NCBI GenBank assembly: GCA_050575255.1
Contig: JBNZDD010013687.1
Span: 1,929,487 to 1,993,486 of the forward strand
Direction of reading: 5' to 3'
DNA: 64,000 nt
DNA from: Harriotta raleighana
Lineage: Eukaryota
Positions 10,301-55,300 of the stretch are shown here, piece after piece. The position numbers are program-made. How positions within the stretch are numbered: the stretch's first letter is position 1; each line of letters starts with the position of its first letter.

Positions 10301-13300
10301 GTAAAAAATGTTATAATTACTTGTCACTTCAGTAACATGAGGCCTTTGACACAGTTTGCTCTCAGTGCTGTGCATCATTACAAGCAGGGTGCGGGAATGA
10401 TTTGGAAAATACTGTAGCACTTAGGGCTATGGGGTAATGTGGAAAACATTGTCATTATCTGCAAAACAAAACAAAAAAAGGTTCTCTGCTCCTTTCTATC
10501 AAACAATCTTGACAATGGTAAATATAATAGAATATCTTGAACAAAGCACTTAGGGCTATGGGGTAATGTGGAAAACATTGTCATTATCTGCAAAACAAAA
10601 CAAAAAAAGGTTCTCTGCTCCTTTCTATCAAACAATCTTGACAATGGTAAATATAATAGAATATCTTGAACAAAGTGTATGGTGCATTGCCCTTGTCTTT
10701 TATAATACACTGTAGATGAAGATCATTCTAATCGCGTTCAGGGATATGAGGCAAAAATGCTACTAGTCTCTTAAAAGATTGCTAGGTTGACTTTCATGGT
10801 ATTCCAGTTTTATAAAATAAAGAATATGACTATAAATAAATTTTATACTTCTACCATTTTCATGCTTGAAACGTTTAGAATTTCCTTTAAAATGACCAAC
10901 NGAATATGACTATAAATAAATTTTATACTTCTACCATTTTCATGCTTGAAATGTTTAGAATTTCCTTTAAAATGACCAACTACAAATTACAATTGTATAC
11001 AAATTACAAGTGATTTCACATCAGAAGGATGTCCAAAGGTGCTGGACATTCAGGAACTTGGACCCAAGCAGAGTGTTCGGATCGGATGGGGGTAACGGGC
11101 AGCAGGCAGAGAGGGTAGAAGTAGGAGGGAAACCGAAGGTATGGTCGAAGAGGAGGTTCTTGAGATGTGCCTCGAAGGAGGCAAGGGATGGAGTAAGGAG
11201 AAAGGACTAGGATGGAGTCCAAAAGGATGGGGCTAGAGAGACTGATGGACAGACCACTGGTGGAGTGGGCGGGTTGGGGACATGGAGCAGACCGTAAAAT
11301 TATGTACTTTTTTCTTTTGTAGCTCAATTGGAAGCAAAAGGATACACATTATCGGACATTATTCTGGTTCACCTCTATGTGCAAAGTATGAGTGATTTTG
11401 GTGCTATAAACTTAGTCTACCAGTCGTACTTCAACTTAAATCCGCCTGCAAGGTAATATAAAACACAGCTAACAATGCTAAAACTTGACCACATGTGTGG
11501 TTTCTGAAAGACAAAGCTTGATAATGATCAGAATCAAGAACCTTAGCAGATTTTCAACCATCACCCAAAGATCCTGAGGCTATTTGTGGTGTAATTATTG
11601 CCCATCCTAGCTGAAATCAGACTTGTGACTGAATCTGGAACTTTGTTTTTTTTTAAGCTGTTTCACCCCAGCACAGGAAAGATTTTTTTATAGGGACAAA
11701 TCCATTTTAGTCTCTTGGTTATACTCTAATATTATCTGAGAACGGTTCCACTCTGACACCAATATTTGCATTTAGACGTTTCTAAAGTTAATATTTCCTC
11801 TAAAGCTTTAACTTTGCTGGAATGTCTCAAAAGTAATCAAAATTAATTACTCTTGTTCTTTAGCAAAAATAGTGACTGCTTTTGTAAGCAGATGACACAG
11901 ATATTTATACTGTCAAGGTTCCACAATTGGTCATGAGATGATGATACATTCATCTGGAGGACGTTTAGACTGAGCACCAGAAGAAACTTCCTTAACTTTT
12001 CCATTAGTCTTATGGAATCTTTAAAGTCCACCTGAACAGACAGCTAGGAGCATAACTTAATGTGCAGAACAGGTAGCAGGGCCCATGATTTAATGTATTT
12101 TCTGAAAGATGGCACCCGCAGTTCAGTGTACTGCCAACTGAGAGCAGTTGGCAAAGCTTGTGCACAATTGGCTGCCGTGTTTCGCCCACAAGTATACAAT
12201 CAATTCACTTTACAGTGAAGCGCTTTGAGACGTCTAGAAGATGTGAAAAGTGCTATATCAAATGCAAGGATTATTATTATTCATTTAGTTTGGCTTATGA
12301 GCTCTACCCTTTGTATTATCCATGAAAAGTGTGGAGCTGAAGAGGACTTTTGATCATCCACAATATAAACAGATGTCAAGGGTGAAATTGTTCTTGTTGT
12401 TTGTTTAGGGTTTGCGTGGAAGCTTCATTACCTGATGGTGTATTACTCCTGCTTGATTGCCTTGTACATAGAAATGAGTTAACCACACATGATCCATTCA
12501 AAGAACAAAAGGAAGTGATGCATGTTCAGAGCATTTCACATTGGGCACCTGCTAATATTGGCCCCTACAGTCAGTCAGTCAAGGTAAGACATTAACGTTT
12601 ATTTTTGCACTCATTTATTTTTATTTTTATTAATTCACACAAGCAAATCATTCTTCTCACTTACCTCGTGGAGTCCTGTAGCTTAGTGGTTAGACCACTC
12701 ACCTTACAAGTGGGAGACCTGGGTTCAATTCCTGGCAGAGAACCTTGGGCAAGTTTTCTTACTTCAAACGCCTGATAATAATCCCTCAAAAAAAAATTAA
12801 TCATTTCAATCCACGACTGCTTGTAGGGACACTGCTGTGCGCAATTGACTGCTTCATTTCGCCCACATATATATAGTCAATTCACTTTACGGTATATTCT
12901 GTGAAGCGCTTTGAGACGTCTAGAAGACGTGAAAAACGTTATATCAAATGCAAGGATTATTATTATGTGGGACTTGCTTCAGAATATTCTTTTTGACCAT
13001 ATTGAATACCTGCTTTCTAGAATGAATCTATTATATTGTCCAGGCAAAATCAATGTACAAGATTTTACCAGCAGAACGCCTCAGCTCTTGCATCTTCAGT
13101 TGCCTGAAGCTAATGATGCTCCTGCAGAGAGGTGAGAGCTGCTGCTGACTATGTTGGAAATGTCAACAGGAAATTGTATGTTGTTACAATGTGGGATTTA
13201 AAACATTGATGCAAAATAACAATTTTAGTCACAGTATATTAATAATGTTTAACCAACAGAGAGAATTCATATAGACTTGCACATTGATTTGAAGTATTGT

Positions 13301-52300: not shown

Positions 52301-55300
52301 AAACATGAGTCACTAAAAAAAAATGTAGCACAATTGGGACCTGTTCCCGAATCTAAGAACAGGCAGATGTGTAGTTATATTGGGAATAATATACTGGTAA
52401 TGTATATTACAGTACAACTAAAATGAGGCAGGGATTGGGGATTCATAGGAATATACTTGTGTGCTGAATGTTAAATTTTTATGTTGCCTTGGGAATATTT
52501 GTTGCCTTCAAAATGGAACATAATCCGGGCTACATTTGCTGTCACCCCTTATCATGATAAGTGGCTGGGCAATTTTCTTGAATTCCAAGCAGCTGGAGCA
52601 ATCCGTAGAGGTGAATGGCTGTAATAGTTGCAGGAATCTGGAAAATAAAAAGCACATGGAAGATTCTTTGCTTATACTAAGACCGGTCTGGTAAATATTA
52701 ATGTTTGGACGTTGAACTCAGAAAATGAAAGAAAAATGCATAACTCACTGCTTTTGTTTATCAAATTAAAAAAAACTGAATTCTAGTGTTTAGTTCCAAA
52801 AGTGAGTTATGATTGCTCTGTTTATCCTGAAACATATTGCAAGTGCAGAGGATATTATCACATGAGCTTCCTTTCAGCTCTTTCCACAGATGACCCTTGT
52901 CCTGTCCTGAAATTAGTCCCAGACTTAATTCACATTTTTAGTTCAATTCAAATACCCATGCACATCATAGAATTATATAGCACAGAAGGAGGCCATTCGC
53001 CCCATCGTGTCTGTGTTGGCTCTTTGCAAAGAGCTGTCCAAATCAATCGAACTCCCCCACTTTCTCCCCAAAGTCCTGCAAACTTATCCTCCCAATGTAG
53101 ACACATACTTATGGAAAGAAGAACTCCCCTTTACTTTTGTTCTGTAATGCAATCTAAATGTATTGAAAAATACTGTTTAAAAAAAGAGAGAAAATAATTT
53201 GTATGTGTTTTCAGTTACCAGGTAACCTCATTTGAAATTGTGCCTCTGATTTGATAAGATGACAAACTGCAGAAATACTATTACAGTAAAACCCCATTTA
53301 TCCAGCACCCTCAGGGGGGTCGACTAATTGACTGTGCCGGATAAACGGGCAGCAAGTTGTCGAAAACCCAACATAAAAAATTAACTTATTTTAAAACATA
53401 CCATTTTAATAATAGACTAAATAGTAACAGAATATTGTATGAATACTTACCAATAAAGCATTCCAGCACAGTTGGTAAAATGATCGGTAAAAAAGCATTT
53501 TTTACCGATCTGTAAAAACCCAAGTTTGTAAGTTTAATAAGTGCACATGCGCACACATTGCACGCATGCGCAAAGTGAGCAAACTTGCGATTGCTGGAAT
53601 GGGGGATTGCCCCGGGAGGGGGTCGAGCAATCCGGTTGATCGGGTCACGGATTATCAAGGTTTTTCCAGTTTTGCCAGATTCCATGGGTTTTGCGACCAA
53701 TAGCTAATAGATCATGTCTGAGAGCACCAAACTTGTGAATTATGCACGATGCATGATGTCTCTTCATTATATTTTACAGGAGGATATTGATGGCCAGTCT
53801 GAGGCTGTCTTTGGACCTTTGATCGTGGCAGTGGTGCTTCACCTTCCAAAAGACGCAGCAGTGGAGTGGCATGTTGTAGCCCTAACTGATGACCCCTGCA
53901 AGCGGAAATCATTCAGCATGAATCAGATACTGGATGATTGTAAAATTGACTGTGAAGTAGTCGAGTCAAGCCTCTTGTCAAGTGCTGCTATCTCATTGAC
54001 CCTGAGCCTTCTCTTGCCATCAGTAACTTCTTTGCACCTAAACACTGTGATGAAAGAACTCGCTACTATGTTACAGAAAGCTCTGGATAAGCTCCCCGAA
54101 GATATCATCCAAACCCCACTGTGTTTCAGGGCATTCTACCGGAAGGATGCCATGGATGCTAACTCTATGGAAATAGGTAAGACTATCACATTGATCGTAT
54201 TGTTTAGCTGTGTGCAGAAATCATAGAACCTTTATACAGGATTGTTTTGCATACTGCCAGCTATGAAACATAACAGATCTTCTGATAACCCAGTAACAAT
54301 TTTCTTACTGAATCACTGGATGGAGACATCTGCAAATAACACATCAGTGACATGTGCCTTCAGGTCCTATTCTGTTTATTAGCATTTCCGTATTTCTTGT
54401 TGCCTGGCAATGCTTCACACATTGTTATTAGGAAACACTGCAAAACCAAAACATGCAATATAATCTGATTTTTTTTTAAACAAAAGAAACTATTGCTCAA
54501 TGATGAACTGGCTCTGAAGTGACATTCCTGGCAATGGACTGCAGAATCAAGCCAGTCCTCTAGTGGTCTTGGGAGACTGGTTCCTGAGCCAAGGTGGCAG
54601 CACAACAAGCCTGGCTTATCAGCAGTCTCTTGAAGCAGACCAGTCACTGGGGGCAGGGAGTTATCCCACTCAGGGCCTGTTAACCCTCCAAGACAATACC
54701 ATAACGTGTTAGGGGTGGTCCTAGCTGGACAAGCTTGCCGGATAGCAATATCAATGGCAACTGATGTGGTTTTAGCTGGTTTGACTCCAGCAGTTCACTC
54801 TGGGGTTCCTAAGCCTTGGCTCTTGCCAAACTGTGCCTAATGCTTTCCGGAATTGGGGGGATAAAATGTGTCCCTCCAGGGAGAAAGTGCACATTCCATT
54901 CCAACAGTCTACCTCTGGGATGTGTAAGTGGGATACATGGAAGTCTCAGCTTGGTTTGGATATTCGTAAGAAAGGTGATGGATTTCCTCAGGTAAAGGAA
55001 ATCCCGGCTGATCGAAATGTTGTTTTAAATGGTGAATTTATGGCAGTAGTTGAGTTTGGGAGCCATGGCACCATCCTGAATGTTTGTGATTCATTCTTCA
55101 AATACTTTGAAGCGTCCTCCAGAAACGCACTGTGCTGTGTAAATGTACATTATATACATTGTATTGATAATAAATACAACCTTACATTTTGTATGGTGCC
55201 TTTCATATCATAAAGATGTCCAAAGCGCTTCACGGGAAATACTGTAAAGTGGAGTGGCTGGGTGTTTTGTGGGTAAATGCAGCAGCCAATATAGGCACAG

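What the first reader, a model, noticed from the sequence alone, without database searches (positions are those of the whole stretch)
11323..53880. Two Rid domains of long DPH6 keep complementary halves of one RidA-type active site
Seen: domain 1 has DFGAIN...PPARVCV but no GPYSQ, GQI or VE motifs. Domain 2 has GPYSQ, AGQIG and LPKDAAVEW, but has PLIVAVV where PAR should be. Established: RidA/TdcF imine deaminases are homotrimers with sites at subunit interfaces and an essential Arg105, and long eukaryotic Dph6 (e.g. yeast) carries two YjgF-like domains of unclear function. From memory, Arg105/Cys107/Phe85/Asn88 line one face and Tyr17/Gly31/Pro114/Glu120 the other; this needs checking. Inference: the reciprocal loss pattern leaves exactly one intact composite site between domains 1 and 2. 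That would be a selected deaminase or metabolite-binding pocket tethered to an ammonia-dependent ligase, possibly supplying ammonia locally or sensing amino-acid status.
Basis: partly seen in the sequence, partly recalled or inferred. Interest (0 to 1): 0.78.

Follow-up and report, generated by a model that had tools for sequence, protein, structure and literature searches.

The report
Single shared pocket in DPH6 tail
The tail of this cartilaginous-fish diphthamide-synthesis gene (DPH6) holds three fused RidA-like domains, not two, and together they keep only one RidA-type pocket, split between domains 1 and 2 and conserved across eukaryotes.

Summary
The window holds the 3' two-thirds of a DPH6 gene from a cartilaginous fish, not human. 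It is nearest to Callorhinchus milii DPH6 (76-97% identity per exon).

Domain 1 keeps the Arg face of a RidA site (Asn88, Arg105 and Cys107 equivalents). Domain 2 keeps the Tyr/Glu face (Tyr17, Gly31, Pro114 and Glu120 equivalents). Each lacks the other half.

The pattern holds in 128 of 128 diverse long DPH6 proteins. These residues are among the only ten invariant columns of the whole protein.

New here: a third, degenerate Rid-fold domain follows domain 2. It shows in the AlphaFold2 topology (pLDDT 92.7, pTM 0.92) and in profile comparison (hhalign probability 90.6%). The tail is therefore probably a covalent pseudo-trimer with one live site out of three.

I could not confirm that the two halves meet.

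Function is untested. The ammonia-supply idea is already in print. A yeast allele changing seven of these residues at once is already known to be dead (PMC3709272).

The parts
194..286 (+). Exon fragment: end of the diphthine-ammonia ligase (PP-loop/PF01902) domain, aa 219-249 of the C. milii orthologue. Ends are as tblastn gave them, not refined to splice sites.
   Evidence: tblastn of P0002 against the window, 97% identity; Pfam PF01902 on P0002 residues 1-230.
9074..9217 (+). Exon: poorly conserved linker between the ligase domain and Rid domain 1 (aa 250-297). Ends as tblastn gave them.
   Evidence: tblastn 81% identity; pLDDT 63-81 in this stretch; mean column entropy 3.55.
10093..10224 (+). 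Exon: start of Rid domain 1 (the strand equivalent to RidA beta3, holding GYQW at 10128-10139, and the start of helix 1). Domain 1 has no beta1-beta2 hairpin and no Tyr17 loop.
   Evidence: AG/GT borders read; tblastn; model strands and helices E312-321, H330-347.
11323..11452 (+). Exon: Rid domain 1 helix1-beta4-helix2. Holds DFGAIN (Phe84 and Asn88 equivalents) and PPA plus the first two bases of the Arg105-equivalent codon.
   Evidence: PF01042 30.3 bits on the open frame over this exon; the Asn and Arg are kept in 128 of 128 and 328 of 328 homologues.
12409..12583 (+). Exon: last base of the Arg codon and VCVEA (Cys107 equivalent). Then LPDG and LLLLD, where Leu stands at the Glu120 position. 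Then the linker, domain 2 beta1 and the lid loop SISHWAPANIGPYSQ (Tyr17 equivalent).
   Evidence: HMMER alignment to PH0854 puts Gln400 of P0002 (Leu in the window) on the Glu120 column; the Tyr is kept in 128 of 128.
36601..36843 (+). Exon: Rid domain 2 beta2-beta3 (AGQIG, Gly31 equivalent), helix 1 (LNHV, His at the Asn56 position), beta4 and helix 2 (no Asn88 equivalent).
   Evidence: PF01042 42.3 bits; Gly kept in 127 of 128.
53780..54176 (+). Exon: domain 2 beta5 (GPLIVAVV, Ile at the Arg105 position) and beta6 (LPKDAAVEW, Pro114 and Glu120 equivalents). From about 53890 onward, the first two-thirds of a third, degenerate Rid-fold domain (beta1-beta3, helix 1, beta4). The rest of domain 3 lies in an exon outside the window.
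   Evidence: domain 3 topology beta-beta-beta-alpha-beta-alpha-beta-beta with block-mean pLDDT 84-97; hhalign domain 3 vs domain 1 probability 90.6%, E 1.3e-6.

Best explanation
The window carries the 3' part of a long-form DPH6 (diphthine-ammonia ligase) gene of a cartilaginous fish.

Shown: behind the ligase domain the protein has three tandem domains of the RidA/YjgF fold in one chain. The third is too diverged for Pfam.

Inferred: the three pack like the three subunits of a RidA trimer, a covalent pseudo-trimer. Of the three inter-domain clefts only one keeps a RidA-type site. It is built from the Arg face of domain 1 (Asn88, Arg105, Cys107 equivalents) and the Tyr/Glu face of domain 2 (Tyr17, Gly31, Pro114, Glu120 equivalents).

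Inferred: that pocket binds a small 2-imino, 2-oxo or amino-acid-type carboxylate through the Arg, as RidA and TdcF do. Because the catalytic Arg is kept, it most likely still hydrolyses an imine or enamine to a keto acid and ammonia beside the ligase domain.

From the literature: the pocket residues matter in vivo, but the module is not needed for the amidation chemistry itself.
For: 1. Gene identity: exon open frames hit PF01042. Best hits are chondrichthyan DPH6. Seven exon matches are 76-97% identical to C. milii DPH6.

2. Face assignment from solved RidA trimers: Asn and Arg come from one chain, Tyr17, Gly31, Asn56, Pro114 and Glu120 from the other (PMC12218379 Fig. 5 legend). Glu120 bonds the residue-107 carbonyl across the interface (PMC1884159).

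3. Conservation in 128 sequences (P0002 plus 127 of the 150 listed 50%-identity representatives; 23 dropped for length):
- Domain 1: Asn 128/128, Arg 128/128.
- Domain 2: Tyr 128/128, Gly31 equivalent 127/128, Pro114 equivalent 126/128, Glu 125/128.
- In the 149-row alignment only ten columns of the 696 are invariant. Eight are N372, R386, S429, W431, P438, Y439, Q441 and G453, at or beside this site.

4. The other half-sites are dead. In 328 long homologues an Arg lies within 2 positions of the Arg105 column in 6/328 (domain 2) and 2/328 (domain 3). A Glu lies within 1 position of the Glu120 column in 1/328 (domain 1) and 0/328 (domain 3). Columns with entropy below 0.2: domain 1 has 3, domain 2 has 15, domain 3 has 0.

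5. Third domain: AlphaFold2 with 149 rows gives mean pLDDT 92.7 and pTM 0.92, with residues 568-695 folding beta-beta-beta-alpha-beta-alpha-beta-beta. hhalign of domain 3 vs domain 1 gives probability 90.6%, E 1.3e-6, with Leu674 on the Arg column. Domain 3 spans at least 90 residues in 108/128.

6. Pairing of the two faces:
- In my mean-field covariation analysis (317 sequences, effective number 203) the best inter-domain pair is 387-556. It ranks 2 of 64,261 and joins domain-1 beta5 to domain-2 beta6, the contact that the Glu120-Cys107 bond predicts.
- The block Arg-face(D1) x Glu-face(D2) scores 0.860 against a null of 0.631 +/- 0.079. Only 1.3% of 2000 random sets reach it. The reverse block scores 0.611, reached by 55.6%.
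- In RidA trimers the N-terminal residues of one subunit pair with the C-terminal tail of a neighbour (PMC7311433). That fits the roughly 7-residue link between domains 2 and 3.

7. In vivo: the yeast DPH6 allele F373A N377A R396A Y449F S450A G467A Q468A is non-functional (PMC3709272). By motif order these are the same residues. I did not align the yeast protein.

8. Precedent: bacterial '3x-RidA' proteins are taken to be covalently linked trimers (PMC4433059).
Against: - No tool returned model coordinates, so the distance from the Arg to the Tyr and Glu was never measured.
- The other two ring interfaces show no covariation enrichment.
- One pair that fits the opposite arrangement (402-544) ranks 55.
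- The best pair, 387-556, is not significant once phylogeny is controlled. Independent-pairs tests gave same versus opposite direction of 4.5 vs 1.5, 4.0 vs 0.7 and 2.9 vs 0.3, with median p of 0.375, 0.25 and 0.25.
- The Asn56 equivalent is His/Asn/Ser and the Ser30 equivalent is mostly Ala.
- Human DPH6 lacks the Rid domains yet restores diphthamide synthesis in a yeast dph6 mutant, and purified Dph6 works with ATP and ammonium (PMC3585130 and PMC5354562, both citing Su et al. 2012, which I could not read). So the pocket is not needed for the chemistry.
- In UK114 the equivalents of Pro105, Arg107, Gly35 and Tyr21 are needed for trimer assembly (PMC5979572). Conservation could therefore be structural.
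- The yeast allele changes seven residues at once and may simply misfold.
Confidence: 0.6

Rival explanations
1. Scaffold only. The three Rid-fold domains are a folding, stability or docking module for the ligase domain, for example for eEF2 or Dph7. The invariant Arg, Tyr, Gly and Pro are kept because they glue domains 1 and 2 together. No ligand or catalysis is involved.
For: - UK114 needs the equivalents of Pro105, Arg107, Gly35 and Tyr21 to assemble its trimer (PMC5979572).
- Truncating or deleting the Rid region kills yeast Dph6, while the naturally short human enzyme complements (PMC3585130).
- The domain-2 segment 420-434 is the Rid stretch most coupled to the ligase domain in covariation: top of 225 windows, z 3.1.
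Against: - Only one of the three interfaces is conserved. The other two are held together without these residues.
- Residues with no known packing role in the passages I read are also near-invariant: the Glu120 equivalent 318/328 plus 10 gaps, the Asn88 equivalent 328/328.
- Six of the seven RidA site invariants are kept as a set.
Confidence: 0.22
2. Substrate-holding pocket. The composite site does not act on free metabolites. It grips the amino-acid-like diphthine side chain (carboxylate plus trimethylammonium) of eEF2, or another carboxylate on the substrate protein, to position it for the ligase domain.
For: - The RidA pocket binds alpha-substituted carboxylates through a bidentate Arg105 salt bridge (PMC1884159).
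- The lid segment of domain 2 covaries with ligase-domain positions 111-117, 140 and 19-23. These lie next to the SDYQR stretch. From motif order I take that stretch to match the Tyr103/Gln104 pair that PMC3541065 places at the modelled EF-2 interface. That mapping was not aligned here.
Against: - The same carboxylate must be adenylated in the PP-loop site, so it cannot sit in both pockets at once.
- The short human and archaeal enzymes handle the substrate without it (PMC3585130).
- The covariation signal is weak (effective number 169).
Confidence: 0.1
3. Classical homo-oligomers. Domain 1 of one chain trimerises with domain 1 of other chains, and likewise domain 2, as in free RidA. The complementary pattern would then be a coincidence of independent decay.
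For: Earlier papers suggested the domains 'may promote homotrimerisation' (PMC3585130).
Against: - Homotypic trimers would have no intact site at all, yet both half-sites are invariant over red algae, plants, amoebae, fungi and animals.
- The single-chain model is compact and confident (pTM 0.92).
- Domain 1 lacks the beta1-beta2 hairpin that a RidA subunit uses at its interface.
Confidence: 0.04

Closest known systems
Yeast Dph6 (YLR143W) and other long-form eukaryotic diphthine-ammonia ligases
   Same: - Orthologous architecture: a PF01902 ligase domain followed by YjgF/UK114-type domains (PMC3585130, PMC3541065).
- The conserved residues mutated together in yeast (F373, N377, R396, Y449, S450, G467, Q468; PMC3709272) match, by motif order, the residues discussed here.
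   Different: - In the passages I read, the literature speaks of two UK114 domains that 'may promote homotrimerisation'.
- I found no statement that the two domains keep complementary halves of one site, nor that a third Rid-fold domain follows.
- Figure S8 of PMC3585130 is a supplementary file I could not open. It may already show the pattern.
RidA/TdcF/YjgF/UK114 homotrimers (Pfam PF01042)
   Same: - Same fold: Foldseek matches TdcF 2uyj with a target-normalised TM-score of 0.91.
- Same site residues at an interface between two fold units. The essential Arg105 is kept.
   Different: - Three identical subunits with three identical sites, against one chain with three unequal domains and one site.
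- Domain 1 has lost the N-terminal hairpin.
- Domains 2 and 3 have lost the Arg.
- Asn56 is His/Asn/Ser.
Bacterial 3x-RidA proteins (e.g. EF_0115 of Enterococcus faecalis; PMC4433059)
   Same: Three Rid domains fused in tandem, presumed to be a covalently linked trimer unit.
   Different: - They are classed in the RidA subfamily and are not described as fused to a ligase.
- Whether their three sites are all intact was not examined here.
- No solved single-chain example appeared in the PDB fold search.
Ammonia-supplying glutaminase domains of PP-loop amidoligases (GMP, NAD and asparagine synthetases; archaeal AsnB-DUF71 fusions, PMC3541065)
   Same: Works-like analogy only: an ammonia-releasing module tethered to an ATP-dependent PP-loop amidoligase.
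   Different: - Unrelated fold and chemistry: glutamine hydrolysis against imine hydrolysis.
- No ammonia channel has been shown here.

Membership tests
DPH6, long form (diphthine-ammonia ligase) | Orthology to characterised DPH6, with the PF01902 ligase domain upstream of the Rid region. | tested here: met
   - Best hits are named DPH6 of sharks, rays and chimaera.
- Per-exon identity to C. milii DPH6 is 76-97%.
- PF01902 lies on residues 1-230 of that orthologue.
- Only the last ~30 residues of the ligase domain lie inside the window (194-286).
Rid superfamily (PF01042, YjgF/YER057c/UK114) | Sequence match above the Pfam gathering score. | tested here: met
   - The open frames over exons 11323-11452 and 36601-36843 score 30.3 and 42.3 bits (cut-off 27.3).
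- P0002 has two PF01042 stretches.
- Domain 3 does not reach any Pfam threshold.
Rid superfamily (PF01042, YjgF/YER057c/UK114) | Chorismate-mutase-like fold, beta-beta-beta-alpha-beta-alpha-beta-beta. | tested here: met
   - AlphaFold2 model of the orthologue, pLDDT 92.7: domains 2 and 3 have the full topology. Domain 1 lacks beta1-beta2.
- Foldseek to RidA/TdcF chains gives target-normalised TM-scores of 0.84-0.93.
RidA subfamily (imine/enamine deaminase) | Seven invariant site residues: Tyr17, Gly31, Asn56, Asn88, Arg105, Pro114, Glu120 (PMC1884159). | tested here: inconclusive
   - No single domain has them all.
- As a composite of domain 1 plus domain 2, six of seven are kept. Asn56 is His in the window and His/Asn/Ser in homologues.
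RidA subfamily (imine/enamine deaminase) | Homotrimer with three equivalent inter-subunit sites. | tested here: not met
   Three unequal fused domains. Two of the three possible sites lack both the Arg and the Glu. Ring packing itself is inferred, not seen.
RidA subfamily (imine/enamine deaminase) | Arg105-dependent hydrolysis of 2-imino acids or 2-aminoacrylate. | not testable with these tools
   Needs an enzyme assay.
3x-RidA type covalent trimer | Three tandem Rid-fold domains in one polypeptide. | tested here: met
   - Model topology.
- hhalign: domain 1 vs 2 probability 93.8%, domain 3 vs 1 90.6%, domain 3 vs 2 54.4%.
- Domain 3 is present in 108/128.
3x-RidA type covalent trimer | The three domains pack as a RidA-like ring, with the Arg face of domain n against the Tyr/Glu face of domain n+1. 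| tested here: inconclusive
   - pTM 0.92 says the packing is confident, but coordinates cannot be read.
- Covariation supports D1(Arg)-D2(Glu) at the 1.3% level only, and not the other two interfaces.
- The phylogeny-controlled test is not significant.

The most novel reading that the evidence does not exclude
The single surviving RidA pocket is a working imine/enamine deaminase that hands its ammonia directly to the adenylated diphthine in the neighbouring PP-loop site. A Rid-fold pseudo-trimer would then be a new class of ammonia-donor domain, playing the part that glutaminase domains play in other amidoligases. It would tie diphthamide formation on eEF2 to serine/threonine or amino-acid catabolism. 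The lid loop of domain 2 (HVQSISxWAPANIGPYSQ, near-invariant) would be the joint between the two active sites.
Probability: 0.15. Interest if true: 0.8.

Novelty: new variant of a known kind. Interest (0 to 1): 0.5.

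Why it matters
Why non-mammalian eukaryotes carry RidA-type domains on their diphthamide synthetase has been an open question since 2012-2013. Earlier work treated them as two ordinary UK114 domains that might trimerise or make ammonia.

One chain with three Rid folds and a single composite pocket gives a sharper and cheaper test. 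One Arg, one Tyr and one Glu define the site, so single substitutions, ligand soaks and a deaminase assay on the isolated tail can separate 'enzyme', 'sensor' and 'scaffold'.

It is also a clean natural case of a homo-oligomeric enzyme that was fused and then decayed to one active site. The third domain also needs annotating: it lies in residues 343-696, where the precomputed Pfam lists give only PF01042, and the Pfam scan of P0002 found just two PF01042 stretches.

The gene itself is ordinary and already named.

Tried and rejected
- Human origin: rejected. The best hits are chondrichthyan DPH6, and human DPH6 is reported to lack these domains (PMC3585130).
- Shallow AlphaFold2 run (23 vertebrate rows): mean pLDDT 55.8, pTM 0.47, too poor to use. 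Replaced by the 149-row run.
- Shallow hhalign of domain blocks (23 rows): not significant. D3-D2 E 0.14, D3-D1 E 0.12, D1-D2 E 0.02. Repeated with 240-327 rows.
- Complex prediction with domain 1 (296-412) and domain 2 (413-563) of alignment A2: NOT FOLDED. The tool took one chain for a possible microbial protein. The job was counted and gives no verdict on binding.
Taxon names come only.
- First profile search (A2) listed only vertebrates among its best 120. A second search with 20 divergent rows (A3) gave the taxon spread.
- Phylogeny-controlled test of the best covarying pair, 387-556: same-direction trend in all three codings, none significant.
- ESM Atlas on domain 3: best score 0.79, below the level the tool calls more than a lead. 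Its one use was the name of PF28410 (Diphthami_syn_2_C).
- Idea that PF28410 marks domain 3: rejected. Fragments covering aa 343-696 and 445-696 lack it.
- Last exon (aa 658-696): no credible match in the window; best E 0.16, on the minus strand.
- Pfam on eight long intronic frames: no family.
- PDB sequence search and fold search: no solved full-length Dph6 and no single-chain three-domain Rid protein.
- Papers not held: PMC3523822 (Su 2012), PMC23902, PMC2144179.
- The closed collections metagenome contigs and viral contigs were not searched.

Full report
**What the window is.** It is AT-rich (GC 33-40%), with short exons far apart and repeats in the introns. The open frames over two of the exons pass the Pfam gathering score for PF01042 (Ribonuc_L-PSP, the Rid family) on their own: 30.3 and 42.3 bits against a cut-off of 27.3. 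The frames over the other two exons gave no hit at E<=1. Searching exon 36601-36867 alone against longer proteins returned 29 hits. The best are diphthine-ammonia ligases (DPH6) of cartilaginous fishes, led by Callorhinchus milii at 91% identity. I take the contig for a holocephalan-like cartilaginous fish, not human.

**How I handled the spliced gene.** Every full-length step used the database orthologue P0002 (C. milii V9KG05, 696 aa).

**Gene structure.** tblastn of P0002 against the window found seven exon matches covering aa 219-657, at 76-97% identity. The five Rid-region exons have AG/GT borders at 10093-10224, 11323-11452, 12409-12583, 36601-36843 and 53780-54176. The last exon (aa 658-696) is not in the window. 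The Arg of PPAR is encoded by a codon split across the 11452/12409 intron.

- PMC1884159 lists seven invariant residues lining the inter-subunit pocket: Tyr17, Gly31, Asn56, Asn88, Arg105, Pro114 and Glu120.
- It says Arg105 makes a bidentate salt bridge to every carboxylate ligand.
- The Fig. 5 legend of PMC12218379 puts the Asn88 and Arg105 equivalents on one chain, and the Tyr17, Gly31, Asn56, Pro114 and Glu120 equivalents on the neighbour. Its text says only the Arg is essential for catalysis.
- HMMER alignments of P0002 to solved RidA proteins fix the columns. In domain 1, Arg386 is the Arg105 equivalent, Gln400 (Leu in the window) sits on Glu120 and Asp402 sits on Glu122.
- In domain 2, motif spacing puts Ile540 on Arg105 and Glu554 on Glu120.

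**Conservation.** A search of 1.84 billion cluster representatives gave 7965 hits at E<=0.001 and listed the best 150. I aligned P0002 with the 127 of them that are 560-950 aa long; 23 were dropped for length.

| Domain | Residue or position | Count among 128 |
|---|---|---|
| 1 | Asn372 | 128 |
| 1 | Arg386 | 128 |
| 1 | Tyr375 | 125 |
| 1 | Cys388 | 105 Cys, 20 Thr |
| 1 | Glu120 position | Gln, Met, Leu, Lys... |
| 2 | Tyr439, Pro438, Gln441, Ser429, Trp431 | 128 each |
| 2 | Gly437, Gly453 | 127 each |
| 2 | Pro548 | 126 |
| 2 | Glu554 | 125 |
| 2 | Arg105 position | Leu, Ile, Val, Ala... |

- In a 149-row alignment only ten of the 696 columns are invariant. Two are in the ligase domain. 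The other eight are N372, R386, S429, W431, P438, Y439, Q441 and G453.
- An Arg or Glu near the 'dead' columns is almost never seen: 6/328, 2/328, 1/328 and 0/328.
- Named members span a red alga, plants, Dictyostelium, many early-diverging fungi, a cnidarian, molluscs, annelids, an insect, echinoderm, hemichordates, amphioxus, fishes, lungfish, reptiles and birds.

**A third domain.** After domain 2 the orthologue has about 135 more residues with no Pfam match.
- With 149 rows AlphaFold2 gave mean pLDDT 92.7 and pTM 0.92. Residues 568-695 fold as beta-beta-beta-alpha-beta-alpha-beta-beta, the Rid topology.
- Domain 2 has the same full topology. Domain 1 starts at the beta3 equivalent and lacks the beta1-beta2 hairpin that carries Tyr17.
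- Deep profile comparison gives domain 3 vs domain 1 probability 90.6% (E 1.3e-6, 82 columns, Leu674 on the Arg column), domain 3 vs domain 2 54.4%, and domain 1 vs domain 2 93.8%.
- Domain 3 is present in 108 of 128 but is the least conserved part, with no column of entropy below 0.2.
- PF28410, which the database lists on all long DPH6, is 'Diphthami_syn_2_C'. It is absent from fragments covering aa 343-696, so it is not this domain.
- Foldseek matched the ligase domain to archaeal PF0828 (target-normalised TM-score 0.91). It matched a Rid domain to TdcF and RidA chains (0.84-0.93). No single chain held three Rid domains.
- Bacterial '3x-RidA' proteins, presumed covalent trimers, are a published precedent (PMC4433059).

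Three indirect lines remain.
1. *Parsimony.* The two most conserved patches of the tail are exactly complementary half-sites, and every alternative partner face is unconserved.
2. *Topology.* In RidA trimers the N-terminal residues of one subunit pair with the C-terminal tail of a neighbour (PMC7311433). Domains 2 and 3 are joined by only about 7 residues. From the strand order of the fold, which I recall rather than tested, the subunit whose N-terminus lies by a given C-terminus should be the one offering its Tyr/Glu face to that subunit's Arg face. That gives D1(Arg)-D2(Tyr/Glu).
3. *Covariation.* In my mean-field analysis (317 sequences, 364 columns, effective number 203) the top inter-domain pair is 387-556. 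It ranks 2 of 64,261 and joins domain-1 beta5 to domain-2 beta6, as the Glu120-Cys107 contact predicts. Domain-1 beta5 also couples to domain-2 positions 422/423, 451, 462, 478-482. The predefined block Arg-face(D1) x Glu-face(D2) is reached by 1.3% of 2000 random sets, the reverse block by 55.6%. The four blocks involving domain 3 are not enriched.

Against line 3: pair 402-544, which fits the reverse arrangement, ranks 55. On a FastTree of 318 rows the independent-pairs test of 387-556 shows only a same-direction trend (4.5 vs 1.5, 4.0 vs 0.7, 2.9 vs 0.3; median p 0.375, 0.25, 0.25). I therefore rate the pairing as likely, not shown.

**What it does.** The composite keeps six of the seven RidA invariants, including the one essential for catalysis. 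The simplest reading is a carboxylate-binding, probably imine-hydrolysing pocket.
- The yeast allele F373A N377A R396A Y449F S450A G467A Q468A, which by motif order hits the same residues, abolishes Dph6 function in the sordarin assay (PMC3709272). With seven changes at once, misfolding is not excluded.
- Against an essential chemical role: human DPH6 has no Rid domains yet complements yeast, and the enzyme works in vitro with ATP and ammonium (PMC3585130 and PMC5354562, citing a paper I could not read).
- The ammonia-supply hypothesis is already printed three times (PMC3541065, PMC3585130, PMC3709272).
- A weak new lead: the domain-2 segment 420-434 (beta1 and the loop before the Tyr) is the Rid stretch most coupled to the ligase domain. 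It is top of 225 windows, z 3.1, with pairs 117-430, 111-427, 140-423 and 23-430 (effective number 169). This hints that the pocket's lid leans on the ligase domain.

**Novelty.** Six literature searches and the passages read turned up the two-domain description, the conserved residues and the ammonia idea. They turned up no statement of complementary half-sites, a single composite site or a third Rid-fold domain. The library lacks most subscription papers, and supplements are closed (notably Figure S8 of PMC3585130). The gene is known. The reading of its tail as a decayed covalent Rid trimer with one site is a modest new variant.

Noticed in passing
window 12676-12738 (+), 31988-32059 (+), 39856-39927 (-), 40828-40899 (+): Four tRNA-like matches (Rfam RF00005, 32.7-50.8 bits) lie inside DPH6 introns. 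They sit under short open frames with similar peptides and look like heads of tRNA-derived SINE copies rather than tRNA genes.
   Followed up: partly
window 27712-28170 (+) and 42421-42813 (+): Two intronic open frames share a 47-residue stretch at 62% identity (E 5e-17), so a repeated element sits in two introns. Neither has a Pfam match. From memory the shared motif resembles the 3' part of fish LINE ORF2, which I did not test.
   Followed up: partly
P0002 residues 420-434 (window 12500-12544 region) versus ligase-domain residues 19-23, 111-117, 140: In the covariation run that included the ligase domain, the domain-2 beta1/pre-Tyr loop is the Rid segment most coupled to the ligase domain (top of 225 windows, z 3.1). 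The HVQSISxW stretch before the usual RidA APxxIGPYSQ loop is near-invariant and specific to DPH6.
   Followed up: partly
P0002 residue 402 (window 12455-12457, the Asp of LLLLD): Domain 1 has lost the Glu120 equivalent but keeps an acidic or small polar residue two positions on, at the Glu122 column: Asp 236, Ser 36, Glu 34 of 328. Its role is unexplained.
   Followed up: no
beyond window 54176: The exon ends in phase 1 at 54176. The final exon (helix 2, beta5 and beta6 of domain 3) is not within the remaining 9.8 kb. The ligase-domain exons before aa 219 are also upstream of the window.
   Followed up: yes
window 3222 and 10901: Two single-base N positions. They were left as they are.
   Followed up: no
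proteins P0055, P0060, P0073: Three unnamed representatives of 323-336 aa match only the ligase domain of P0002, at 73-79% identity. They are short forms without the Rid tail, like the mammalian enzyme described in PMC3585130. Their origin is unknown and I did not pursue it.
   Followed up: no
proteins P0284 and P0309: Two Mortierella entries of 1276 and 1371 aa add PF00153 or PF13520 (transporter families, names recalled) to the DPH6 domains. They are either further fusions or merged gene models.
   Followed up: no
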